This document shows, piece by piece, positions 1,313-63,833 of a stretch of DNA of 64,000 nucleotides; positions within the stretch are counted from its first letter, which is position 1; each line of letters starts with the position of its first letter. The stretch is from Candidatus Saccharimonadota bacterium. Lineage in GTDB: Bacteria > Patescibacteriota > Saccharimonadia > Saccharimonadales > SLHW01. Made by a program: the position numbers and the translations under genes. Location: the NCBI GenBank assembly GCA_024635455.1, contig JAGXIU010000003.1:67966-131965 (forward strand). The letters are read 5' to 3'. The notes under the pieces were generated by a model, which saw only the letters and a list, made by a program, of their open reading frames with translations, was not told the DNA's origin and did no database searches.

Positions 1313-2575
1313 ATGCAAACAATCAAATCCCGTTTCCCTGCGATTATTATTAATCGAGTACTCATAACAATATTGAGCACTCTTGTATTGCTGTCTTCTA
1401 ACTTTAGTTTTCTTATTCATTCAGCTTCTGCCTATAGTCTTCTTGGCGACCGAGAAATTAAAATGTCAACATCAGAAGGCGGCGCAACAGGTGCAACCTA
1501 TGCAGTTGATTTCGATGTTGCAACCGCCAATGACATTGGTGGTATTGTGATAGCATTCTGTGCGGGCGCCAGCTCACCTATAATTGGTGACACAGACTGT
1601 GTTCATCCAACAGGATTCGATCTATCAAGCGCTGGAGTTGCAAACCTATCAAATGGTACCGGTGGTACTGTAAACCTGGCAGGTTTCACTTGGGCTTTCA
1701 CTGATCACGCTAATGCTGCTGGCACGAACACACTGGAGTTGACTAAATCTGCCCCAGAAGCCACAGGAATAACCATTGGTGATGCGGTACAGTTTGAGAT
1801 AACAGGCATTGTTAACCCAAGTACGATCGGTACATTTTACGCTCGTATCATGACATATGCAACGGAGGCAGAAGCGCAGAATTACACGCTCGCTGATCCA
1901 GACAATATCGCAACACACCCGATCGTTGAAGCCGGCGGTATCGCGCTCAGTACAGCTGAACAAATTGTTGTTGAAGCAAAGGTACAGGAGCGTCTGGAAT
2001 TTTGTGTCTATACCTCAGCTGCTGACTATACTGGTTGTTCAACAGTTAGTGTTAGTAATCCAGTCGTCCTGGGTGATGTTAATGGTGTACTCAGCTCAAC
2101 ACAACCTTCTATAAGTAAAGACACAAAATATAACATTACAACCAATGCTGGACAAGGCGCTACTGTTCGTATTAAGGGCACCACATTAACGTCAGGCCTC
2201 CTAACTATCGATCCAGTCGGTGATGTTACTCCAGGCGATGGTGTAGCCAATACAAGCTCAGTAGGTAGTGAACAGTTTGGCTTCTGTACTTATACTGATG
2301 CTGGTAGCCTTGACGCAGGTCTTACACCTAGCGCACCTTACAATGATGCGAGTTGCAACACTACAGTAGATGGACAGGGGCCTGGCAATGACGCAAGCGT
2401 TAACTTCGCATTTAATGACAGTGAGATGACAAGTACTTATGGTGATAGTATGGCTACGAAGTCATCTGGTGACTGGTCAACTGGAATTATGGTTTTATTG
2501 GGTAACGTATCAAATATAACCGAACCAGGCATATACGTTACGACATTTGACGTGATCGCTACCGGACGGTACTAA
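1313..2575 (+). CDS. Secreted/surface protein of unknown function (signal peptide, T/G/A/N-rich, conserved Cys pairs)
   Basis: 420 aa. N-terminal hydrophobic signal (LITILSTLVLLSS...SASA). No TM or sorting motif at the C-terminus. The antisense ORFs inside it look like shadows. Confidence 0.6.
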   Translation: MQTIKSRFPAIIINRVLITILSTLVLLSSNFSFLIHSASAYSLLGDREIKMSTSEGGATGATYAVDFDVATANDIGGIVIAFCAGASSPIIGDTDCVHPTGFDLSSAGVANLSNGTGGTVNLAGFTWAFTDHANAAGTNTLELTKSAPEATGITIGDAVQFEITGIVNPSTIGTFYARIMTYATEAEAQNYTLADPDNIATHPIVEAGGIALSTAEQIVVEAKVQERLEFCVYTSAADYTGCSTVSVSNPVVLGDVNGVLSSTQPSISKDTKYNITTNAGQGATVRIKGTTLTSGLLTIDPVGDVTPGDGVANTSSVGSEQFGFCTYTDAGSLDAGLTPSAPYNDASCNTTVDGQGPGNDASVNFAFNDSEMTSTYGDSMATKSSGDWSTGIMVLLGNVSNITEPGIYVTTFDVIATGRY

Positions 2576-2682
2576 AAAGAATCCTCGAAGTTTAATTGAT
2601 AGTTATATCGCGTCCAGTAAATAAAGCCGATAATTATAAAGAGCAGAATAATCAAAATAATAGTGCGCTTTGTTTCACTCAT
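2572..2682 (-). CDS. 36-aa single-TM micro-protein translationally coupled to the sortase gene
   Basis: My own translation gives MSETKRTIILIILLFIIIGFIYWTRYNYQLNFEDSF. Its ATG overlaps the sortase TGA (ATGA). It falls below the ORF-track length cutoff. Confidence 0.3.
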   Translation of the reverse strand: MSETKRTIILIILLFIIIGFIYWTRYNYQLNFEDSF

Positions 2683-3257
2683 GATTGCTCCCGTGCTGTT
2701 ATAACCAGTCTGTGCTCAGCCGTTAGAAGCGGCGTACAAGTGTAGATCGTTAATTGTTTTTCATCACTCGGTTTTTCTATACCGGTGCTATTAGCGGTCA
2801 CAGTTTTGATATCTTCGACGATGAACTTATGTACTTTCCCATTCCAACGTATCCCGACCTCATTACCAATTTCCAGTTTATCAAGGTGATATAGCGCCCC
2901 GAATGGCTGCTGGTAGGTAAAGCGATGTCCCGCTAAGATGATATTACCCTGCTCTTCAGGTGCTGCAGACATTGGCCGGAGCCAAACACCACCATCATTA
3001 ATCACACTTAAGCTGTCTCCGGTTACAATTGGTTCATCTACTAAAATAGCTGGGATTAGTAGTCGGTTGCCTAGGTTGGTTCCAGCAGTTATATCTCCAG
3101 AAATTTGATTCTCAATACGTAACTGATTAGCTGGGTTTCGTTGTTCTACCCAGTGCTGAAGAGACGGTATCAGCGGCAACAATAGTGCATAAAGCGACAA
3201 AGCTATCACGATAGCTGCTAGTGAGTTATTGACGCGTCGATGCGTTACGTACTTCAT
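2679..3257 (-). CDS. Sortase family transpeptidase (membrane-anchored; class E suspected)
   Basis: 192 aa. N-terminal TM (AAIVIALSLYALLLPLIP), catalytic His context ILAGHR, TLxTC-type motif QLTIYTCTP, and a downstream conserved Arg (EHRLVITA). Confidence 0.85.
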   Translation of the reverse strand: MKYVTHRRVNNSLAAIVIALSLYALLLPLIPSLQHWVEQRNPANQLRIENQISGDITAGTNLGNRLLIPAILVDEPIVTGDSLSVINDGGVWLRPMSAAPEEQGNIILAGHRFTYQQPFGALYHLDKLEIGNEVGIRWNGKVHKFIVEDIKTVTANSTGIEKPSDEKQLTIYTCTPLLTAEHRLVITAREQS

Positions 3258-3323: not shown

Positions 3324-3896
3324 ATGAGACATATTACCTTTTGGGTGTTTCAGATGAGCGTTGTCTTGGGTGTTATTTTTATGTCTGTTGCTATTTTTGG
3401 CGAGCTTCAATTGCCTACACAGGCTCGAGAAATCTCTGCTAACCAAGAAGTCCTTGCTCGGTCAACCTATTCCTTTGCTGCTACAGCTGAACCGATTGAC
3501 TCAAATGAAGTCCTCGCTCGCGTAAATAGCCAGCGTATATTAGCAGGACTTGCCTCGCTCCAGGCAAATGCTGAGTTAGAGCAAATTGCCCAGCAGCGAG
3601 CAGATGATATGCAGCGTGAAGCGTATTATGCACATCAAAGCCCAGTCACTGGTGAGCAATTTTCAGATATTTTACGCCAAAAACAAGTTGGTTACCGGTC
3701 TGCTTGTGAGAATTTAGACATGACCTTCTATACACAAACGGATGCTATCGTTGAAGATTGGCTGCAGAGCAACGCTGGACATCGTGAGTGTTTGTTAGCA
3801 CCATATGCTTCGCAGGCCGGTTATGCCGTCAGCTCGATGAAGCTAGACGGAAATCAAATAGCCTATATTGTCGTAGCGATTCACCTATCAGAATAG
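3324..3896 (+). CDS. CAP/SCP/PR-1 domain secreted protein (YkwD-like)
   Basis: 190 aa. Signal/TM at the N-terminus, then the pattern ...RVNSQRILAGLASLQANAELEQIAQQRADDM...AH...GENL...W..S.GHRECLL. Confidence 0.8.
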   Translation: MRHITFWVFQMSVVLGVIFMSVAIFGELQLPTQAREISANQEVLARSTYSFAATAEPIDSNEVLARVNSQRILAGLASLQANAELEQIAQQRADDMQREAYYAHQSPVTGEQFSDILRQKQVGYRSACENLDMTFYTQTDAIVEDWLQSNAGHRECLLAPYASQAGYAVSSMKLDGNQIAYIVVAIHLSE

Positions 3897-11553: not shown

Positions 11554-13521
11554 ATGGATATTAAACCACGCTCATCGATGAGCAACGAAGACAACCAGAA
11601 CAATAAGCCAAGTCAGACAAACCAGCCCCCACCCTCATCATCTGATGCAGCTGGCGGTTCAACATCATCACCACAAACCAGCTCACCAGCTTCACCGCAG
11701 CCACAAACTAATCCAGCTGCTGATACAGCAAATCAGCCAGCCGCTCCAGCGCCAGCCGCTGAGATAAAGCCATTTACGATGGATGATCCAAGTACAGCTC
11801 AGAATGGTGAGGTTGCTCAATCAACTCCACCTGAGCCAGCCGCTGCGAGCTCAGATCCAGCAAAGCCATTTGATGTCGAGAAAGCGCAAAGTACTCCTGG
11901 AGCTAAGCCACCAACAACCCCTGCACCATCGCCGTCCCAACAAAACAACACCAACCCAAAACCTGCCGAAGAAGCGGTCGCGCCGGCGACTGCGCAGCCT
12001 CTAGACGCGGCGCAGACCACTAATAACCAAACCGATAACCCAACCCCGGCCTCAGCCGGCCCAAGTCAGCCCTCCGCCACTCCAGCGCCAGCATTTGGGT
12101 CAACATCTCCTCCATCAGCGAACCAAGCAAGCACGAAAAAACCAAAGCAAAAACACACTGCGCTCATCGTCGGGTTAGTCACCGCAGCAATAGTGCTTGT
12201 TGCAGGCTATGTTTTTGGTTACTATCTGCCCAATCGTCCCGAAAACGTATATCGTAACGGATTGGAGCGTAGTGGCGACGCCATACATAACTTGATTATT
12301 GAAGCAACCGAAGTCGAACAGCTAGAAGCTCTAAACCGCATGCAGATGACAGGATCTATGAGTTTTTCTTCAGGTGATATTGAGTTTGAGGGCTCACTGA
12401 ACTCCTTGTTGGGTGAACAGAATACCGACAGTTCATTCGATGTTGCTCTTACGTCTGCTGGAGCAGAAGACATTGGTCTAAGCGGCGACGTTCGCACCAC
12501 CTTAGCAGACGATGAGCGATTTCCTGACATATATTTTCAACTCACCGGCATGGCATCACTCGGACTAAACGCATATCTTCCTGGCATAGAATCGTACGAT
12601 GGACAGTGGATTTCGGTAAGTTCTGAATTGCTCGAGTCATCACTTGGTGAAATGTATGATACGGCAGAATCAGATACTCAAGCGACACCAGAACTGCAAG
12701 AGTACACGACCTTAGTACGTGATATTTCTGCAACAACCAATGACTATATTTTTAGTGCTAATGATGAAACAGCTGTTATACAAATGGAAGAATTTCTCGG
12801 TCAAGAAGAGCTCGGAGACATTAGTACTAACCGTTACAGGGCCTCAATCAACCAAGATAACGCAATTGCTTATTGCCAGGAGATAGTAGCGGTATTTTAT
12901 CGCTCGCAGTTAAACCGCACACTAAGTGGCGATGACGATGAAACTATTGAAGCTAACATTACAGAATACCAAGATCAATGCCAAGAGCTCCCAGAGGAAG
13001 CTGATGGAGCTGGCGAAATCGATGAAACGTTCGATGTATGGATAGATCGTGACACGAAACTTATACACAAAGTACGAGTTAGCGATAGTGAAAATGATGA
13101 GAACTACGCTGAAGTCGGGCAACGCTATAGCGGTGGTGACGAGCTTGAGCTGTTTATTTACACTCAAGATGCAGAGAGTGATATAAAAACGACGGTGACA
13201 TTCAAAACGAACTTACAAACAAATGTAAGCTCTGTTAGCGCTAACCTTACTCAACAAGGTGATAGTCCTTACAGTTTTGATGCGAACCTACAGGTCGAAC
13301 CATATACTGATGAAATTAGTGTAGAGGCGCCTGCCGGGGCAGTTTCTATCGAGCAGGTTATGGAGGAATTGTTCGGCGCTATGAACACGCAACTGCAGCC
13401 TGGCATTGCGCCAGAGTCGACTATTGAATTCAACGATAGTGTCGACTCTGAGCGACTCGAGACTATCGCACCGCAAGAGACTTCGTCGCCATTCACTGAG
13501 CTGCAACGACTCTTTCAATAA
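11554..13521 (+). CDS. Membrane-anchored protein: ~200-aa P/A/S/T/Q-rich disordered N-terminus, one TM, ~430-aa acidic C-terminal domain (unknown function)
   Basis: 655 aa. A KKPKQKH stretch precedes the TM ALIVGLVTAAIVLVAGYVFGYY. I recognised no motif in the C-terminal domain. Confidence 0.7.
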   Translation: MDIKPRSSMSNEDNQNNKPSQTNQPPPSSSDAAGGSTSSPQTSSPASPQPQTNPAADTANQPAAPAPAAEIKPFTMDDPSTAQNGEVAQSTPPEPAAASSDPAKPFDVEKAQSTPGAKPPTTPAPSPSQQNNTNPKPAEEAVAPATAQPLDAAQTTNNQTDNPTPASAGPSQPSATPAPAFGSTSPPSANQASTKKPKQKHTALIVGLVTAAIVLVAGYVFGYYLPNRPENVYRNGLERSGDAIHNLIIEATEVEQLEALNRMQMTGSMSFSSGDIEFEGSLNSLLGEQNTDSSFDVALTSAGAEDIGLSGDVRTTLADDERFPDIYFQLTGMASLGLNAYLPGIESYDGQWISVSSELLESSLGEMYDTAESDTQATPELQEYTTLVRDISATTNDYIFSANDETAVIQMEEFLGQEELGDISTNRYRASINQDNAIAYCQEIVAVFYRSQLNRTLSGDDDETIEANITEYQDQCQELPEEADGAGEIDETFDVWIDRDTKLIHKVRVSDSENDENYAEVGQRYSGGDELELFIYTQDAESDIKTTVTFKTNLQTNVSSVSANLTQQGDSPYSFDANLQVEPYTDEISVEAPAGAVSIEQVMEELFGAMNTQLQPGIAPESTIEFNDSVDSERLETIAPQETSSPFTELQRLFQ

Positions 13522-58919: not shown

Positions 58920-59070
58920 TAAGCATAGAATAAACAGGGTGGTGCTTTACAACTAATTCGAGTATCAACATGGGAGGCGTTGAACCATTCTCAGTAATCT
59001 GGTCGCTTAGAGAATGATGAGCCAATAGCGAAACCGAGCCATGCTGAATCTTACACAAGGGAGATTCAAC

Positions 59071-62000
59071 ATGAGTACGGCTTTATCAATAGGTAATAAA
59101 CAATCGATTCTAGATATTTTTGGACGAGCGCGCAATATTTTGTTGGCGCTCGTTTTTGCTTCCACGCAACTAATCGTGCCATTAAGTGTGCTAACCGAAT
59201 CAGTCCAAGCAGCCGGACCTGGAACTATAGATGTCTCTACCCATCAAGCCCAGCTGAAGGATGGAGCGAATGGCAACTTACTCGGATACACTACAGGCAG
59301 CAGCAATATTACAACCTATTCCGAGCTTGATTCGCTTAATATCCGGTTTGATATAGAAGCTAATGGGGCGCTCGCAGGTCAAATGCAGATCGAATTCACG
59401 TCAAACGATACAGGTTGTTTGTTCTTTGATGGTAGTTTTGGTTTAGGTACCCACGATGCTTCTGCCCCTACACTAACGAATGTAACAGGTAGTGCACCAA
59501 GTATCAGTACAGTCGACGTACCCGACGATAATGGAAACGATTGGGTTCAGGTATTGTATGTAGATTTCGAAGGTTCTGGTTCAGCAACCGTAAACTACTA
59601 TCTGACTTTTAGTGACGAAGCTGGAGAGTGTAGCAACGGTTCGCCGCAGCACTCACGACTCGCGAATGGGCCTGAACCTGGTGATTTTTCAAATATTGGT
59701 GACCAGAACATCCCGATTCCTTCCCGTGCGATTATCGAACTGCCCGAAATATTTATAGAAAAATGGGTCGACGTAGACGGTGACGGCGAGGTTGATCGGC
59801 GTGCGCTAGAGGGTGAATGGTCTTTTTCATTGGACGGCGGAGATCCAGTATCGACGGATGAAAACGGAAAAGTTGTGTTCAGCAACGTAATTCCTGACGG
59901 TGAGCATACTATAACAGAGCACAATGGTCCGTCTGGACAGAGTTTTATTTCAGGCGAAGGAGATAGTTGTGAATTTGATATTGACGGTGTTGCCACGGCA
60001 AATGTAGCGGCAGGAACGACAGCCGCAGACGCTATATGTACCTTTAATAACGGTGTATCCCCTGGGTCTATATCAATCACGAAGGATGCCGTGTCGAACA
60101 ACCTTACTGACTTTGACTTTACCGCCACTGGCGATGGTGTCGATGCTTTCACGCTTGATGATGACTACGGTGTGACAGGCTCGGATAATATATACGATAA
60201 CGAGAAAACTTTCCCTGGACTATCTGCTGGTACGTACACATTCACTGAGGCAGACGTTGCCGGTTGGGATTTAACTGATATATATTGCGAAGACGAGGAT
60301 AACAATGAGTTGAGTGGGGATTACTTCGATTTAACTACTGCTACTGCAACTGTTGACTTGGCGCCCGGCCAAAACGTCACCTGTACATTCAAAAATGTCG
60401 AGCGAGCTCAAGTGATGCTTGAAAAGATTACTGACCCGGACGGTGATATAACAGCCTTTGGCTTAACTTCTAAAGTCGATAGCGAAGGCTCCGAAATATT
60501 TACAAGTGACGATACATTCAGCACAGAAAAAGACGCAGAGTTCACCATGCGCCCAGGAACTTATAGCTTTACTGAAGTAGAAAATGATGATTGGCGACTC
60601 ACGAACATTGTCTGTGATGGCACGGAGCAGTCCGCGAACAATATTGCAAACCGAACGGCAGAAATAACCGTAGCCGCCGGAGATGACATTACTTGTACAT
60701 TTACAAATACAAAGCTCGCAACATTGACGATTGTTAAACAAGCGTTACCCCAATCCTCTACCCCGTTTTCGTTCTTAACTCGAATTGGCGTTGAAGAGGG
60801 CGAAGAAGACCGAGAGTTCACATTGATCGACCAAGAAGACGGCGAAGAAGGTGCGAATACAGAAGTATTTGACGAATTAATGCCAGGTGACTACGACGTT
60901 ACAGAGACGTTTACAGACGGGTGGAGGCTGACTGACGTAGCCTGCACGATGAACAATGAAACTTATGGGTTTACTCAAAACACCATTCTTGATGAGGCCG
61001 ACCAAGAAATTGCTGAAAAAATAAACGTTGCGCTTACTGCTGGCGATGACGTAACCTGCACTTTCACGAACACTCAACTACTCTCAATCGGTGGTATTAA
61101 ATACCTCTGGACAGAAAGCGGCCTATCCCGCCCTACCGCTACAACCCCATGGACGGTTGAGCTATGGCTCCAGGGTGACACTGAATTCGAGAAGATCGAT
61201 GAAACCACCACTGATGAGAGTGATGGAAGCTATAGCTTCACTGACTTGTTGCCAGGAATCTATCAGTTACGTGAGCTAACTTCTGAGTTAGTAGGCTGGA
61301 CGCAAACAATCATACCTGCTGACATAACGCTAGAAGCTGGTGATATAGTCGTCGACGCTAATCTCGAAAACTTCGAGCACGCGAGCGTATCCGGCTACAA
61401 ATGGAACGATGCCGACGGAGATGGTGTGTGGGACGGCAACGAGGATGCAATTAAGGACTGGACCATCACACTAGAGAGACAAGAAGGTGATAGCTGGGTA
61501 CCCTACCCTGACACTACTAATAACACCACCCAGACTAGCGATGAAGGTCAGTACGATTTCGATGGTTTGCAATTGCTAGAGGAAGAAGCTGGCGTATTTA
61601 CAGCTCCAATGTACCGAGTCTGTGAAGAAGACCGCTCGCCTACCTGGGAACAGACGTACCCAGTCGAGAGCGACTGTCATGAATTTACCATTATCGAATC
61701 TGGCGAAGGATTTATAGGAAACTCTGGCGTTGCCGAAGACTTCAACTTTGGTAACCGTGGCTTCGGTACAATTACTGTTCAGAAAACCGCCTTCACTACA
61801 TCCGAAGAAGCAACAACATTTGCCTTTGAGGTTGACAGCCTTGATTACGATGACGAGTATAGTATCGACTCAATCTCCGTCATCGGACAAGGCACAGAAT
61901 CAGCTGAATCGATTACAGTTGCAGCTGGTTCGTATGAGTTTACAGAAAACGTACCAGAGGGTTGGATACTTCTAGGCTCTTTTTGTAGCACTGAAGAGTC

Positions 62001-63099
62001 TGCCGAAGACTTTACTGTGCTAGCTGGAGGCAATGTTACCTGTACTTTTGTGAACCAAGAGTTAGCAACTGTGAACGTAACCAAGTTTAACGACTTTAAC
62101 GGCAATGGCGAGTGGGATAGCGAGATTGAGCCAACACTCTCAGATTGGGAAATGACCTTAGCGTGTGAACTAGTGCCAGAAAACGGCAATGGGGTAAGTC
62201 CAACTTTTACTGACTTCAGTGAAGAGATACCGTTCTTTCCTACACGATCCTGTTTGGACGACACAGAATCAGAGTTTGAGCTGCTGCAGCCAATCGATAA
62301 CGAATTTACCGATGACGAGGGTGTAGCTACGTTTACGAACCTGTTGACAGGGCCATACACCTTTGGCGAAGTTCAGCAAGACGGCTGGCAACAAACTGGC
62401 ATCTACTGTGAGTCTGATAACCAAGAATTCACTGGCAATCAACTATTTGTCTTAGCTGGGCAGACACAAGAGTGCTTCATCGGCAATGCACAAGACCTTG
62501 TACTGAACCTTGATAAGACGAACGACACGCCAGAGACAACGGTTGTCGGCGATATCGTTACCTATACATTGACGGTCTCTGTACCAGAAGACAGCGGAGT
62601 CTCCTATAACACCACTGTGGTTGACCTATCCCCAGAGAACTTCATAGTTGATAACGCAACTACGGTATCAACCCTCGTCTCAAGTCCAAATCGACCATCA
62701 GGTGAGGTGTTCGCTGGCATTAACGCTACATATGCTTCTCCAGGAACATGGCAGCTCGGAACGCTCTATCCAGGTGACGTCGTTGAGCTTACGTACGAAA
62801 CAGAGATATTAGAGAATGTCAGTCCGGGTACCTATCCTGATATTGCCTATGCCCGTGGCGGAACAGTCCCAATTCTGGAAGAAAACGAGACAGTCTATTC
62901 TAACGTCCACTTGGCTGCTGTAAGCGATCCATTTGTCGGCACTGAAGTAACAGTCGCACAAGTAACAGGAGAAGTTCTCGGCGTACAGACGCTTGCAAGA
63001 ACTGGGGCGCCATTACTATGGCAACATGCAGCTATACCAATACTGTTGATCGGACTTGCCGCCGCACTTGTTCGACGCGAAACGAAAGGAGCGCTCTAA
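59071..63099 (+). CDS. Giant cell-wall-anchored surface protein/adhesin: signal peptide, tandem Ig-like (prealbumin/Cna-B/SdrD-B-type) repeats, DUF11-like domain, LAxTG sorting signal
   Basis: 1342 aa from the ATG at 59071 (SD GGGAGA). Repeated W(D/R)LT.I.C...(V/I)TCTF.N modules and three DxDGDG-type loops. C-terminus LARTG + hydrophobic stretch + RRETK. Confidence 0.9.
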   Translation: MSTALSIGNKQSILDIFGRARNILLALVFASTQLIVPLSVLTESVQAAGPGTIDVSTHQAQLKDGANGNLLGYTTGSSNITTYSELDSLNIRFDIEANGALAGQMQIEFTSNDTGCLFFDGSFGLGTHDASAPTLTNVTGSAPSISTVDVPDDNGNDWVQVLYVDFEGSGSATVNYYLTFSDEAGECSNGSPQHSRLANGPEPGDFSNIGDQNIPIPSRAIIELPEIFIEKWVDVDGDGEVDRRALEGEWSFSLDGGDPVSTDENGKVVFSNVIPDGEHTITEHNGPSGQSFISGEGDSCEFDIDGVATANVAAGTTAADAICTFNNGVSPGSISITKDAVSNNLTDFDFTATGDGVDAFTLDDDYGVTGSDNIYDNEKTFPGLSAGTYTFTEADVAGWDLTDIYCEDEDNNELSGDYFDLTTATATVDLAPGQNVTCTFKNVERAQVMLEKITDPDGDITAFGLTSKVDSEGSEIFTSDDTFSTEKDAEFTMRPGTYSFTEVENDDWRLTNIVCDGTEQSANNIANRTAEITVAAGDDITCTFTNTKLATLTIVKQALPQSSTPFSFLTRIGVEEGEEDREFTLIDQEDGEEGANTEVFDELMPGDYDVTETFTDGWRLTDVACTMNNETYGFTQNTILDEADQEIAEKINVALTAGDDVTCTFTNTQLLSIGGIKYLWTESGLSRPTATTPWTVELWLQGDTEFEKIDETTTDESDGSYSFTDLLPGIYQLRELTSELVGWTQTIIPADITLEAGDIVVDANLENFEHASVSGYKWNDADGDGVWDGNEDAIKDWTITLERQEGDSWVPYPDTTNNTTQTSDEGQYDFDGLQLLEEEAGVFTAPMYRVCEEDRSPTWEQTYPVESDCHEFTIIESGEGFIGNSGVAEDFNFGNRGFGTITVQKTAFTTSEEATTFAFEVDSLDYDDEYSIDSISVIGQGTESAESITVAAGSYEFTENVPEGWILLGSFCSTEESAEDFTVLAGGNVTCTFVNQELATVNVTKFNDFNGNGEWDSEIEPTLSDWEMTLACELVPENGNGVSPTFTDFSEEIPFFPTRSCLDDTESEFELLQPIDNEFTDDEGVATFTNLLTGPYTFGEVQQDGWQQTGIYCESDNQEFTGNQLFVLAGQTQECFIGNAQDLVLNLDKTNDTPETTVVGDIVTYTLTVSVPEDSGVSYNTTVVDLSPENFIVDNATTVSTLVSSPNRPSGEVFAGINATYASPGTWQLGTLYPGDVVELTYETEILENVSPGTYPDIAYARGGTVPILEENETVYSNVHLAAVSDPFVGTEVTVAQVTGEVLGVQTLARTGAPLLWQHAAIPILLIGLAAALVRRETKGAL

Positions 63100-63833
63100 T
63101 GAAACGCGCACTACGACAACTCTCACTAGTACTTACCTTGCCACTAATATTTGCCGGTGTAGTAAGTGCATCCAGCCACTACTGGAAGATTGAAATATCA
63201 GACCCAACTACCACAAACCAGTTACGAACTTTTAACGTTGAGTACACTGCCCTATCAGTTGATCCGACTGATCAGACAACTGTTGATTTGCTTGAGAATG
63301 GCACGCAGATAGATACCGACACAACGCCTGGTGGCGGTGGTTCAGGGGCATTTGAGGTCACAGTAGAAGAAGACGGTACCTTTGTCTACCAATTGCGAGC
63401 GACCAGCAGTTTAGATAGCACAACTAAGGTTTCTGAAGCACGAGCTGTCACTGTAGAGACGCCTGAAGGTCAAGACGAATCAATAATCATTGTTGAAACA
63501 GATCTAACCCCAGAACAAGAAGCTGGCTTAATAGCGGCTGGCGTAGATGGTGCCGCTGGTGGCGGTGGCGGTGATGTTGCGGGTGCTACTGATGGCGGCG
63601 GTGCTGCTGATGGTACCAACCAAGACGGTGAGATCTCTGACGAAGCAGCAACGACATCAACCGATGAAGGAGACGTGCTTGGCGTAGAAGACACTGCTGA
63701 AGATGCAGCAGCAGCTGGCATGAGCAATACAGTTCGCATAGTGTTAGCGATCTTAGCCGTTTTGCTCATAGCTTACTACTGGTTCTTTTACAGAAACGGC
63801 CAAGTCAATCCGTTCTCTCGTACTGAAGACTAA
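63099..63833 (+). CDS. Secreted, C-terminally membrane-anchored protein with a Gly/Ala/Asp-rich linker (hypothetical)
   Basis: 244 aa from the ATG at 63099 (TAATG overlap with the adhesin stop). Signal peptide LSLVLTLPLIFAGVVSASS. C-terminal TM IVLAILAVLLIAYYWFFY. Confidence 0.7.
   Translation: MKRALRQLSLVLTLPLIFAGVVSASSHYWKIEISDPTTTNQLRTFNVEYTALSVDPTDQTTVDLLENGTQIDTDTTPGGGGSGAFEVTVEEDGTFVYQLRATSSLDSTTKVSEARAVTVETPEGQDESIIIVETDLTPEQEAGLIAAGVDGAAGGGGGDVAGATDGGGAADGTNQDGEISDEAATTSTDEGDVLGVEDTAEDAAAAGMSNTVRIVLAILAVLLIAYYWFFYRNGQVNPFSRTED

What the first reader, a model, noticed from the sequence alone, without database searches (positions are those of the whole stretch)
59071..63099. 1342-aa multi-repeat adhesin with an LAxTG (not LPxTG) sorting signal, matched to a lone sortase 56 kb away
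The C-terminus is a textbook cell-wall sorting signal except for the motif itself. It reads LARTG (62992..63006), then a hydrophobic stretch APLLWQHAAIPILLIGLAAALV, then RRETK. LAxTG is the substrate motif established for class E sortases of Actinobacteria. The only sortase in the window (2679..3257) is therefore predicted to be class E and to process this protein. The body contains at least six ~105-120-aa modules. Each carries a Cys pair (W[DR]LT.I.C ... [VI]TCTF.N at nt 60034, 60379, 60691, 61054 and 62038, with a degenerate copy ECFIGN at about 62473). There are also three DxDGDG/NGNGEWD calcium-loop-type SdrD-B-like domains and a DUF11-like domain. For a putative epibiont this is the obvious host-attachment candidate.
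Basis: partly seen in the sequence, partly recalled or inferred. Interest (0 to 1): 0.55.

Follow-up and report, generated by a model that had tools for sequence, protein, structure and literature searches.

The report
Riboswitch-controlled, sortase-anchored Saccharibacteria adhesin
A Saccharibacteria (ultrasmall epibiont) genome encodes a long surface adhesin with a proline-less wall-anchoring signal; a cyclic-di-GMP riboswitch appears to switch it on, and a phylum-typical sortase that is not class E most likely attaches it to the cell wall.

Summary
The 1342-aa ORF (59071..63099), LARTG, the hydrophobic stretch, the RRETK tail, nine Cys pairs and the single sortase in the window are all present.

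The inference "LAxTG, therefore class E sortase" fails:
- The sortase scores about 52 bits on the class E, C and D models alike (cut-offs 140-165).
- Its nearest solved relatives are class D and C.
- The class-E tyrosine position holds arginine.

It belongs to a Saccharibacteria-wide sortase lineage found in 355 species genomes.

The pairing of sortase and adhesin is supported. In 8 of about 60 relatives with enough flanking DNA, an adhesin homolog lies within 10 kb upstream of the sortase ortholog, on the opposite strand. In six of them it is immediately adjacent. The signals there read LVNTG, LINTG or LADTG, so the lineage motif is L-[V/A/I]-x-T-G, usually followed by an xKGGxx tail.

- A c-di-GMP-II riboswitch (58964..59048) ends 22 nt before the start codon. 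It recurs before homologous genes elsewhere, and its closing stem competes with a hairpin that covers the ribosome-binding site and AUG.
- All eight stalk modules keep a Lys/Glu/Asn isopeptide triad.

Verdict: a new variant of a known kind.

The parts
58964..59048 (+). c-di-GMP-II riboswitch aptamer (Rfam RF01786) in the 5' leader of the adhesin mRNA
   Evidence: It scores 62.2 bits against a gathering score of 53.5, with E = 1.8e-11 and the full model 1-84 matched. The same family passes its gathering score upstream of adhesin homologs in L041 and L081. Four sequences give 4 compensatory pairs in the P2b helix, about 91% paired.
59040..59073 (+). Expression platform: a hairpin in which the 3' strand of aptamer stem P1 pairs with the Shine-Dalgarno (GGGAG) and the AUG
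   Evidence: Minimum-free-energy folds of the window, L081 and L041 leaders all show this sequestering helix. No terminator-like site lies between the aptamer and the ATG. The ON-switch logic is inferred.
59071..63099 (+). Adhesin gene, 1342 aa plus stop
   Evidence: The closest relatives are 58%, 50% and 43% identical.
59071..59211 (+). N-terminal signal-peptide-like region (aa 1-47; charged start, hydrophobic core, VQA/AG)
   Evidence: Read directly from the sequence. No signal-peptide predictor was run.
59212..59745 (+). Head domain (aa 48-225): a beta-sandwich with an invariant Cys116/Cys187 pair, the presumed binding module
   Evidence: No Pfam hit. It is the most conserved part of the protein: 81% identity to P0072 against 58% overall. 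Only 107 of 1.84 billion representative proteins match. The AF2 model has pLDDT 78. The best PDB match is only borderline: the CLIPPER/DUF11 domain 9ifr, E = 2.6e-3.
59746..62490 (+). Stalk of eight CnaB/prealbumin-like modules (aa 226-1140). Each has a Lys/Glu/Asn triad; seven of the eight have one or two Cys pairs.
   Evidence: Per-segment Pfam gives SpaA_4 at aa 331-442, 443-550, 551-670 and 891-1000, and SdrD_B/SpaA-like matches for the rest. When the 8 modules are aligned, only K, E, G and N are invariant. In homologs, 263 of 267 modules aligned end to end keep the triad and 184 keep the Cys pair.
62491..62955 (+). DUF11/CLIPPER-like domain (aa 1141-1295)
   Evidence: Pfam DUF11 at 20.8 bits, below the 24.6 cut-off. 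JGI names several homologs 'TIGR01451 family'.
62992..63096 (+). Cell-wall sorting signal: LARTG (62992..63006), hydrophobic segment (63007..63072), RRETKGAL tail (63073..63096)
   Evidence: Among homologs the xKG[GA]xx tail is seen in 20 of 30 non-Pro signals and 0 of 14 LPxTG signals.
63099..63833 (+). Downstream gene (244 aa; signal peptide, acidic/Gly-rich linker, C-terminal membrane helix), probably translationally coupled to the adhesin
   Evidence: Stop and start overlap as TAATG, with AAAGGAG upstream. Homologs follow adhesin homologs in L024 and L081. No Pfam family.
2679..3257 (-). Sortase (192 aa) with an N-terminal membrane helix and catalytic His111 (GHRF), Cys174 (LTIYTC) and Arg183. 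It belongs to a Saccharibacteria-typical lineage.
   Evidence: Pfam Sortase at 80 bits. It meets no class model. Conservation of the catalytic residues is shown. The AF2 model has pLDDT 89. Relatives occur in 355 species genomes, nearly all labelled Saccharibacteria.

Best explanation
The locus encodes a fibrillar adhesin of a Saccharibacteria (candidate phyla radiation) bacterium.

Regulation (inferred from structure). The mRNA leader is a c-di-GMP-II riboswitch. Without ligand, the 3' strand of aptamer stem P1 pairs with the Shine-Dalgarno and the AUG and blocks translation. With c-di-GMP bound, P1 closes, the ribosome-binding site is freed, and the adhesin and the overlapping downstream membrane-protein gene are translated.

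Export and folding (inferred). The protein is exported through Sec. It folds into a conserved N-terminal beta-sandwich head on a stalk of eight CnaB/prealbumin-like modules plus one DUF11-like domain. Each module is probably locked by a Lys-Asn isopeptide bond, and most also by a disulfide.

Anchoring (inferred by analogy with characterised sortases). The C-terminal signal (LARTG, membrane helix, RRETKGAL) holds the protein in the membrane. The membrane-anchored sortase encoded at 2679..3257 uses its Cys174/His111/Arg183 site to cleave between Thr and Gly. It then transfers the protein to a peptidoglycan precursor.

Class of the sortase. It is not class E. It belongs to a lineage shared by most Saccharibacteria, with a G-[VIL]-W-x-R-P loop where class E has the Tyr-bearing loop. 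Its cognate large adhesins carry L-[V/A/I]-x-T-G rather than LPxTG.

Shown here: the sequence features, the family assignments, the conserved gene neighbourhood and the riboswitch matches. Inferred: ligand response, cleavage, wall linkage, isopeptide and disulfide bonds, and host binding.
For: Adhesin anatomy.

Sortase. It has the fold and the catalytic triad. The lineage occurs in 355 species genomes, nearly all labelled Saccharibacteria or Saccharimonadales.

Gene linkage. In L011, L024, L026, L033, L041, L062, L080 and L081 a homolog of this adhesin lies within 10 kb upstream of the sortase, on the opposite strand. In six of them (L011, L024, L026, L041, L062, L081) the ORF ends about 50-250 nt from the sortase match and carries LVNTG, LINTG or LADTG. 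In L021 a large LVNTG protein sits next to the sortase on the same strand. About 60 loci had at least 5 kb of upstream flank.

Motif across homologs. Head-bearing homologs carry LARTG x3, LAKTG, LADTG, LANTG x2, LV[NDE]TG x6, LLNTG, LSNTG and LEDTG. The Microgenomates-type relatives carry LPATG.

Riboswitch. RF01786 passes its gathering score in the window, L041 and L081. A fourth copy lies next to a sortase in L043. Metagenome copies precede family members in L131 (= P0072), L152, L082 and L118. A helix that sequesters the SD and AUG recurs in three species.

Precedent. In Clostridioides difficile a c-di-GMP-II riboswitch raises expression of the sortase-anchored adhesin CD2831 (PMC4591827).

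Isopeptide triad. SdrD_B, SpaA_2, SpaA_3 and DUF11 are listed as predicted isopeptide-bond families in bioRxiv 10.1101/2025.04.25.650565.

c-di-GMP synthesis in the group: a GGDEF protein (95.6 bits) in Saccharimonadales locus L019.
Against: - In this genome the two genes are 56 kb apart, so linkage is borrowed from relatives.
- Only 8-9 of about 60 relatives show the neighbourhood.
- Class-F-type sortases are common in Saccharimonadales, and one could lie outside the window.
- LPNTG proteins also sit near this sortase family (L069, L015, L056). The enzyme may therefore not be specific for non-Pro signals.
- No GGDEF, EAL or HD-GYP signature motif was found in the window's ORFs by pattern matching. 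The source of c-di-GMP for this organism is unknown.
- The riboswitch was absent upstream of homologs in L011, L024, L026, L033 and L080, even at E <= 1.
- The P1 stem was poorly paired in my four-sequence alignment (53%).
- No structure of a stalk module was predicted, so the isopeptide and disulfide bonds rest on sequence alone.
- No experiment bears on any step.
Confidence: 0.68

Rival explanations
1. One reading: the sortase is a class E enzyme of the actinobacterial type, and LAxTG is its specific substrate motif.
For: The signal reads LARTG. LAxTG is the class E motif (PMC5148588). One distant relative (P0067, 37% identical) is named 'class E sortase' by NCBI.
Against: - The class E model scores 52.6 bits against a cut-off of 160, no better than class C (52.5) or D (52.1). 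P0067 itself scores higher on class C (64.5) than on class E (57.7).
- The family profile ranks class D CpSrtD (80 bits) and class C (72 bits) above SrtE1 (53.5 bits).
- Foldseek does not separate the classes.
- The conserved class-E Tyr position is Arg94 in the window and is R, L, H, K or V across the family.
- Homologs use Val more often than Ala.
- The lineage is Saccharibacteria, not Actinobacteria.
Confidence: 0.06
2. A different sortase encoded outside the window, for example a class-F-type enzyme, anchors the adhesin. The sortase at 2679..3257 serves other substrates such as small LPNTG proteins.
For: - Class-F-type sortases are widespread in Saccharimonadales (158 hits).
- In L064 one (102 bits on the class F model) sits next to an APDTG protein.
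- Small LPNTG proteins lie beside the family sortase in L069, L015 and L056.
- The window covers only 64 kb of a 418-kb contig.
Against: - Adhesin homologs are neighbours of this sortase family, not of a class F enzyme, in 8-9 species.
- None of the 120 listed class-F relatives sits on a 418,743-bp contig. This is weak evidence, because only 120 of 158 hits are listed and the search has limited sensitivity.
Confidence: 0.13
3. The proline-less motif is not cleaved. The protein stays tethered by its C-terminal membrane helix, and the conserved xKGGxx tail serves some other retention or sorting function.
For: - Pro is normally important for recognition by class A and B sortases (PMC5148588).
- The xKG[GA]xx tail co-occurs with non-Pro motifs, 20 of 30 against 0 of 14. 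This hints at a distinct C-terminal signal.
Against: - L, T and G of the pentapeptide, and its spacing from the helix, are kept across homologs that have diverged to 25-40% identity.
- The gene repeatedly neighbours a sortase gene.
- LVNTG and LAxTG anchors are already annotated or shown in Actinobacteria (PMC12095359, PMC5148588).
Confidence: 0.08
4. The protein is a pilin polymerised by a class-C-like sortase into a covalent pilus.
For: Class C enzymes are among the top structural and profile matches. The stalk domains belong to SpaA-type families.
Against: - Reading the sequence shows no DP[FWY] lid motif. The sortase has no C-terminal membrane helix and ends right after the catalytic Arg strand.
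- Reading the adhesin sequence shows no YPKN-type pilin motif.
- At 1342 aa with a single head, it fits a fibrillar adhesin rather than a pilin.
- There is only one substrate and one sortase, with no pilus gene cluster.
- The adjacent Pam pilin belongs to a donor-strand-exchange pilus system whose description assigns it no sortase.
Confidence: 0.03

Closest known systems
CD2831 / CD3246 of Clostridioides difficile (sortase-anchored adhesins under c-di-GMP-II riboswitches; PMC4591827)
   Same: A c-di-GMP-II aptamer sits in the leader of a gene for a sortase-dependent adhesin with a non-canonical motif ((S/P)PKTG there, LARTG here). High c-di-GMP is expected to turn the adhesin on.
   Different: - The phylum differs (Bacillota against Saccharibacteria).
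- The C. difficile switches act on transcription or on a ribozyme. Here the aptamer ends 22 nt before the AUG, there is no terminator, and the platform looks translational.
- The sortase there is class B.
- No ZmpI-like protease partner was seen here.
Class E sortases and LAxTG substrates of Actinobacteria (SrtE1/SrtE2 of Streptomyces coelicolor; PMC5148588)
   Same: A housekeeping-type, N-terminally anchored sortase is paired with substrates that lack Pro at the second motif position.
   Different: It fails the class E model. The Tyr of the beta3/beta4 loop is replaced by Arg, with a near-invariant Trp two residues earlier. The substrates prefer Val. The lineage is confined to Saccharibacteria and their relatives.
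Gardnerella Cna, an SdrD_B-containing adhesin with an LVNTG anchor (PMC12095359)
   Same: It has the same LVNTG pentapeptide as many homologs of this protein, and SdrD_B stalk domains.
   Different: It is an actinobacterial MSCRAMM with N2/N3 ligand-binding domains. The head domain and the sortase lineage differ.
Fibrillar adhesins with CnaB/SpaA-type isopeptide stalks (survey: bioRxiv 10.1101/2025.04.25.650565)
   Same: Tandem SpaA, SdrD_B and DUF11 family domains with a Lys/Glu/Asn triad form a stalk between an N-terminal head and a C-terminal anchor.
   Different: Most modules here also carry a Cys pair. The head domain has no Pfam family and only 107 representatives in 1.84 billion proteins. 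No hit for 'Patescibacteria' or 'Candidate Phyla' was found in the main text of that survey.

Membership tests
Sortase superfamily (Pfam PF04203 / TIGR01076) | Match to the family model above its curated cut-off | tested here: met
   PF04203 scores 80 bits against 26.6. TIGR01076 scores 56.2 bits against 39.35.
Sortase superfamily (Pfam PF04203 / TIGR01076) | Catalytic His, Cys (TLxTC-type motif) and Arg | tested here: met
   His111 (GHRF) and Arg183 are invariant in 26 relatives. Cys174 (LTIYTC) is conserved in at least 90%.
Class E sortase | Score above the cut-off of the class E model NF033747 (160 bits) | tested here: not met
   It scores 52.6 bits, equal to class C (52.5) and class D (52.1/51.3). 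Ten relatives score 41-69 bits.
Class E sortase | Conserved Tyr in the beta3/beta4 loop (Tyr229 of SrtE1), proposed to read the Ala of LAxTG (PMC5148588) | tested here: not met
   The column aligned to Phe of CpSrtD and Leu of class C (the class-E Tyr position per PMC5148588) holds Arg94. Across the family it is R, L, H, K or V, and the family motif is G-[VIL]-W-x-R-P. The residue was placed by sequence alignment, not by superposing structures.
Class E sortase | Closest solved relatives are class E enzymes | tested here: not met
   Profile search of the PDB gives class D 4d70 at 80 bits, class C at 72 bits and SrtE1 5cuw at 53.5 bits. Foldseek E-values are similar for classes C, D, E and A.
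Class E sortase | Cognate substrates carry LAxTG | tested here: inconclusive
   The window adhesin has LARTG. Homologs have LV (commonest), LA, LI, LL, LS or LE before xTG. LPNTG proteins also neighbour the sortase family.
Cell-wall sorting signal (LPXTG-type) | Pentapeptide, then a hydrophobic segment, then a basic tail at the extreme C-terminus | tested here: met
   The signal is LARTG, 22 hydrophobic residues and RRETKGAL. Pro is replaced by Ala. No NCBIfam anchor model matched at E <= 0.01.
Cell-wall sorting signal (LPXTG-type) | Cleavage between Thr and Gly and amide linkage to peptidoglycan | not testable with these tools
   This needs biochemistry or mass spectrometry.
c-di-GMP-II riboswitch (Rfam RF01786) | Covariance-model score above the gathering score over the full model | tested here: met
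   It scores 62.2 bits against 53.5 with model positions 1-84 matched. It outscores the two related clan families. Homologous leaders in L041 (56.5 bits) and L081 (55.1 bits) also pass.
c-di-GMP-II riboswitch (Rfam RF01786) | Helices kept by compensatory changes | tested here: inconclusive
   With only 4 sequences, P2a and P2b are 91-92% paired, with 4 compensatory pairs in P2b. P1 is only 53% paired in my alignment, whose register is probably wrong for two sequences. By eye, the pseudoknot pairing GCAC/GUGC of the consensus is replaced by UCGC/GCGA.
c-di-GMP-II riboswitch (Rfam RF01786) | Binds c-di-GMP and changes gene expression | not testable with these tools
   The SD/AUG-sequestering alternative helix is predicted in three species. 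Ligand binding is untested.
CnaB-type intramolecular isopeptide domain | Lys in the first strand, Asn/Asp in the last strand and a catalytic Glu/Asp | tested here: met
   K, E and N are three of only four invariant columns across the 8 modules. 263 of 267 full-length module instances in homologs keep the triad.
CnaB-type intramolecular isopeptide domain | The three residues meet in the fold and the bond forms | not tested
No solved structure matches the modules by sequence at E <= 1.
Fibrillar adhesin (PMC8286594) | Repeated stalk domains, a distinct terminal domain and a surface anchor | tested here: met
   The binding activity of the head is untested.

The most novel reading that the evidence does not exclude
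Saccharibacteria may have their own surface-display system with three parts:
- a phylum-typical sortase lineage outside classes A-F, with a WxRP loop in place of the class-E Tyr loop;
- a distinct sorting signal, L-[V/A/I]-x-T-G, a membrane helix and an RR...KGGxx tail;
- a translational c-di-GMP-II ON switch on the adhesin mRNA.

On this reading an obligate epibiont would decide when to display its covalently cross-linked attachment protein by sensing c-di-GMP. The signal could be made by the epibiont itself or could be linked to the host.
Probability: 0.3. Interest if true: 0.72.

Novelty: new variant of a known kind. Interest (0 to 1): 0.56.

Why it matters
How candidate-phyla-radiation epibionts attach to their hosts, and how they regulate attachment, is largely unknown. 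Work so far centres on type IV pili and the recently described Pam pili.

This locus offers a specific and testable module:
- an RNA sensor of c-di-GMP;
- a rare, conserved head domain on a cross-linked stalk;
- a dedicated-looking sortase with an unusual signal.

It corrects the tempting shortcut 'no proline, therefore class E'. It points to a sortase lineage that current class models (NCBIfam release 20) do not cover.

In the paper library searched here I found nothing on c-di-GMP signalling or sortase motifs in Saccharibacteria.

A sortase that accepts L[V/A]xTG might also be useful as an orthogonal ligation enzyme.

Tried and rejected
- Class assignment by structure. The AF2 model of the sortase (pLDDT 89) compared with the PDB by Foldseek gave E-values of 1e-10 to 1e-9 for classes C, D, E and A alike. 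It was not discriminating.
- Sortase as part of the Pam pilus system. The neighbouring gene at 1313..2575 matches the Pam pilin model. That neighbourhood appears only in this genome. Pam pili assemble by donor-strand exchange, and the paper describing them assigns them no sortase. Rejected.
- Thioester head domain. Cys116 and Gln193 looked suggestive, but the Gln is Thr in three of the 19 aligned homolog sequences (sequences). A Cys116-Cys187 disulfide is more likely. Rejected.
- Head-domain fold. There is no significant PDB match; the best is CLIPPER/DUF11 9ifr at E = 2.6e-3.
- PDB sequence search with three SpaA_4 modules: no hit at E <= 1.
- Names for the two proteins in public sources: none.
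- Riboswitch upstream of other adhesin homologs (L011, L024, L026, L033, L080): none at E <= 1.
- Metagenome scan with the aptamer core. Of 82 loci, most precede unrelated or uncallable genes, so this core is not specific to these adhesins.
- Sigma-70 promoter scan upstream of the aptamer: nothing.
- Diguanylate cyclase or phosphodiesterase signature motifs in the window: none.

Full report
**1. Observation.**

The + strand carries one long ORF, 59041/59071..63099. The ATG at 59071 is preceded by GGGAG. The earlier ATG at 59041 lies inside a structured RNA element.

The C-terminus is ...QTLARTG / APLLWQHAAIPILLIGLAAALV / RRETKGAL, with LARTG at 62992..63006.

The 18 cysteines form nine sequential pairs.

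Pfam finds SpaA_4 (four stretches, 134 bits), SdrD_B, SpaA, SpaA_2 and SpaA_3. Scanning the protein piece by piece gives this layout:
- a head with no Pfam family, aa 48-225;
- eight stalk modules, aa 226-1140;
- a sub-threshold DUF11 match, aa 1141-1295.

The ORF at 2679..3257 (-) is a sortase. It is the only sortase-like ORF in the window. The adhesin is the only ORF in the window with a sorting signal.

**2. Organism.**

A profile of the sortase family found relatives in 355 species-representative genomes. Almost all of the best 80 are labelled Saccharibacteria or Saccharimonadales. The gene next to the sortase matches the Pam pilin model specific to the candidate phyla radiation (bioRxiv 10.64898/2026.03.03.709456). 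The window therefore comes from a Saccharibacteria genome. The exact proteins sit on a 418,743-bp contig.

**3. The sortase is not class E.**

- The class-specific NCBIfam models give E 52.6, C 52.5, D 52.1/51.3 and F 26.1 bits, against cut-offs of 140-166. Only the generic sortase model passes.
- Ten relatives behave the same way. This includes the one that NCBI names 'class E sortase'.
- Against solved structures, the single sequence hits class D CpSrtD best. The family profile ranks CpSrtD at 80 bits, class C at 72 and SrtE1 at 53.5.
- A confident AF2 model (pLDDT 89) matches classes C, D, E and A about equally in Foldseek.
- Kattke et al. (PMC5148588) single out a conserved Tyr in the beta3/beta4 loop as the class E feature that reads the Ala of LAxTG, and note Phe at that site in CpSrtD. 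In ungapped alignments that column is Arg94 here. The family motif is G-[VIL]-W-x-R-P, with Trp92 nearly invariant.
- His111, Cys174 (LTIYTC) and Arg183 are conserved, so the enzyme looks active.

**4. The sortase-adhesin pairing is still supported.**

Among the 80 related loci, eight hold a homolog of this adhesin within 10 kb upstream of the sortase, on the opposite strand: L011, L024, L026, L033, L041, L062, L080 and L081. In six of these the ORF ends about 50-250 nt from the sortase match. L021 has another large LVNTG protein beside the sortase. About 60 loci had enough upstream flank to judge.

A fixed gene pair in roughly one species in seven, across sortases only 33-41% identical to the query, is far more than chance placement would give in a genome of about a thousand genes. 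Shared ancestry inflates the count, however.

In the closest relatives (L002-L004) the sortase keeps the same CAP-domain and ferric-reductase neighbours as in the window. In this sub-lineage the adhesin gene has therefore moved away.

**5. The signal.**

Homologs that share the head domain carry LARTG x3, LAKTG, LADTG, LANTG x2, LV[NDE]TG x6, LLNTG, LSNTG and LEDTG. The two with LPATG are of the Microgenomates type, and in them the head is internal.

The neighbours of the sortase carry LVNTG x4, LINTG and LADTG. The lineage motif is thus L-[V>A>I...]-x-T-G. Ala is one option among several.

Non-Pro signals usually end in xKG[GA]xx: 20 of 30, against 0 of 14 LPxTG signals (Fisher p = 3e-5, not corrected for phylogeny).

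Two facts complicate the picture. Small proteins of about 180-200 aa with LPNTG lie beside the same sortase family in L069, L015 and L056. Class-F-type sortases are common in Saccharimonadales, and in L064 one sits beside an APDTG protein. A second sortase in this genome cannot be excluded. None of the 120 listed class-F relatives sits on a 418,743-bp contig, which is weak evidence.

**6.

Rfam's c-di-GMP-II model matches 58964..59048 at 62.2 bits, against a gathering score of 53.5, with the full model matched and E = 1.8e-11. The match ends 22 nt before the start codon.

The same family passes its gathering score upstream of the adhesin homologs in L041 and L081. A model built from these three found a fourth copy in L043, again divergent from the sortase and preceding a secreted protein.

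An exact-core scan of metagenomes returned 82 loci. Those followed by members of this protein family include L131 (the 58%-identical homolog P0072), L152, L082 and L118. L118 also has a sortase-family ORF just upstream. Many of the other loci precede unrelated genes, so the aptamer core is not specific to these adhesins.

Minimum-free-energy folds of three leaders show the 3' strand of P1 pairing with the Shine-Dalgarno and the AUG. No terminator lies between the aptamer and the ATG. The simplest reading is a translational ON switch: ligand closes P1 and frees the ribosome-binding site. This step is inferred.

The precedent is C. difficile CD2831, a sortase substrate whose expression rises with c-di-GMP through a type II riboswitch (PMC4591827).

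A GGDEF protein occurs in one Saccharimonadales locus (L019, 95.6 bits). No cyclase or phosphodiesterase signature motif was found in the window.

The riboswitch was not detected upstream of five other homologs.

**7. Stalk chemistry.**

Aligning the eight modules leaves only four invariant columns: Lys in the first strand, Glu in the Y-x-F-x-E motif, a Gly, and Asn in the last strand. This is the CnaB-type isopeptide triad, which is established knowledge from the work of Kang and Baker. SdrD_B, SpaA_2, SpaA_3 and DUF11 are listed as predicted isopeptide families in bioRxiv 10.1101/2025.04.25.650565.

In 120 homologs, 263 of 267 modules aligned end to end keep the triad and 184 keep the Cys pair. 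Most modules are therefore probably double-locked. A disulfide-forming system (MdbA-like protein plus VKOR) has been noted as common in candidate-phyla-radiation genomes (PMC6744442).

**8. Head and partner gene.**

The head is the best-conserved part of the protein: 81% identity to P0072 against 58% overall. It has an invariant Cys pair. It is rare, with 107 representatives in 1.84 billion proteins. It models as a beta-sandwich (pLDDT 78) with no significant solved relative. Its ligand is unknown.

The next gene starts at 63099, overlapping the adhesin stop as TAATG behind an AAAGGAG. Its homologs follow adhesin homologs in L024 and L081. It encodes a secreted protein anchored by a C-terminal membrane helix, with no known family.

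**9. Verdict.**

The class E label is wrong. The motif should be described as L-[V/A/I]-x-T-G of a Saccharibacteria-typical sortase lineage.

The c-di-GMP riboswitch and the isopeptide triads raise the value of the locus. I rate it a new variant of a known kind, with interest about 0.56.

Noticed in passing
window 58964..59048 (+): A c-di-GMP-II riboswitch aptamer (RF01786, 62.2 bits) lies directly upstream of the adhesin start codon. It is not mentioned in the finding and is now treated as part of the locus.
   Followed up: yes
window 1313..2575 (+): The gene convergent with the sortase matches NF058581, the C-terminal domain of Pam pilus pilins of candidate-phyla-radiation bacteria (58.2 bits against a cut-off of 55). 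This neighbourhood is not seen in any of the 80 related loci. Pam pili assemble by donor-strand exchange, so the adjacency looks incidental.
   Followed up: partly
L064 3..1451 and 1488..2435 (+): A Saccharimonadales genome has a second sortase of class F type (102 bits on NF033748, below the cut-off of 166) right after a protein ending in APDTG plus a membrane helix. 158 relatives were found, several named class F sortase of Saccharimonadales. Two sortase systems may coexist in the phylum.
   Followed up: partly
window 63073..63096, and the C-termini of P0072-P0109: Sorting signals without Pro end in a conserved xKG[GA]xx tail (20 of 30). LPxTG signals of the same protein family never do (0 of 14). 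Unexplained; it could be a second recognition element.
   Followed up: partly
window 63099..63833 (+): A 244-aa gene overlaps the adhesin stop codon (TAATG). It has a signal peptide, an acidic/Gly-rich linker and a C-terminal membrane helix, and matches no Pfam family. Homologs follow adhesin homologs in L024 and L081.
   Followed up: partly
window 3324..3896 (+); L087, L095, L144: A secreted CAP-domain protein is divergent from the sortase, and this arrangement is conserved in L002-L004. In three metagenome loci the same c-di-GMP-II aptamer core appears to precede a CAP-domain protein (79.9 bits, 31% identical to the window's), on a naive ORF call starting about 150 nt after the core with no SD detected. 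No riboswitch was found before the window's own CAP gene.
   Followed up: partly
L019 1401..2186 (-): A GGDEF diguanylate-cyclase domain protein (95.6 bits) lies about 8 kb from the sortase in a Saccharimonadales genome. At least some members of the group can therefore make c-di-GMP.
   Followed up: partly
window 59041..59070: The public gene call for the adhesin (P0071, 1352 aa) starts at an ATG inside the riboswitch aptamer. The ATG at 59071, which has a Shine-Dalgarno, is the likelier start.
   Followed up: yes
L021 11005..11109 (+): A SAM (S-box) riboswitch lies about 0.4 kb downstream of the sortase gene in another Saccharimonadales locus.
   Followed up: no
window 11554..13521 (+): A 655-aa ORF with no Pfam family at E <= 0.001.
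   Followed up: no
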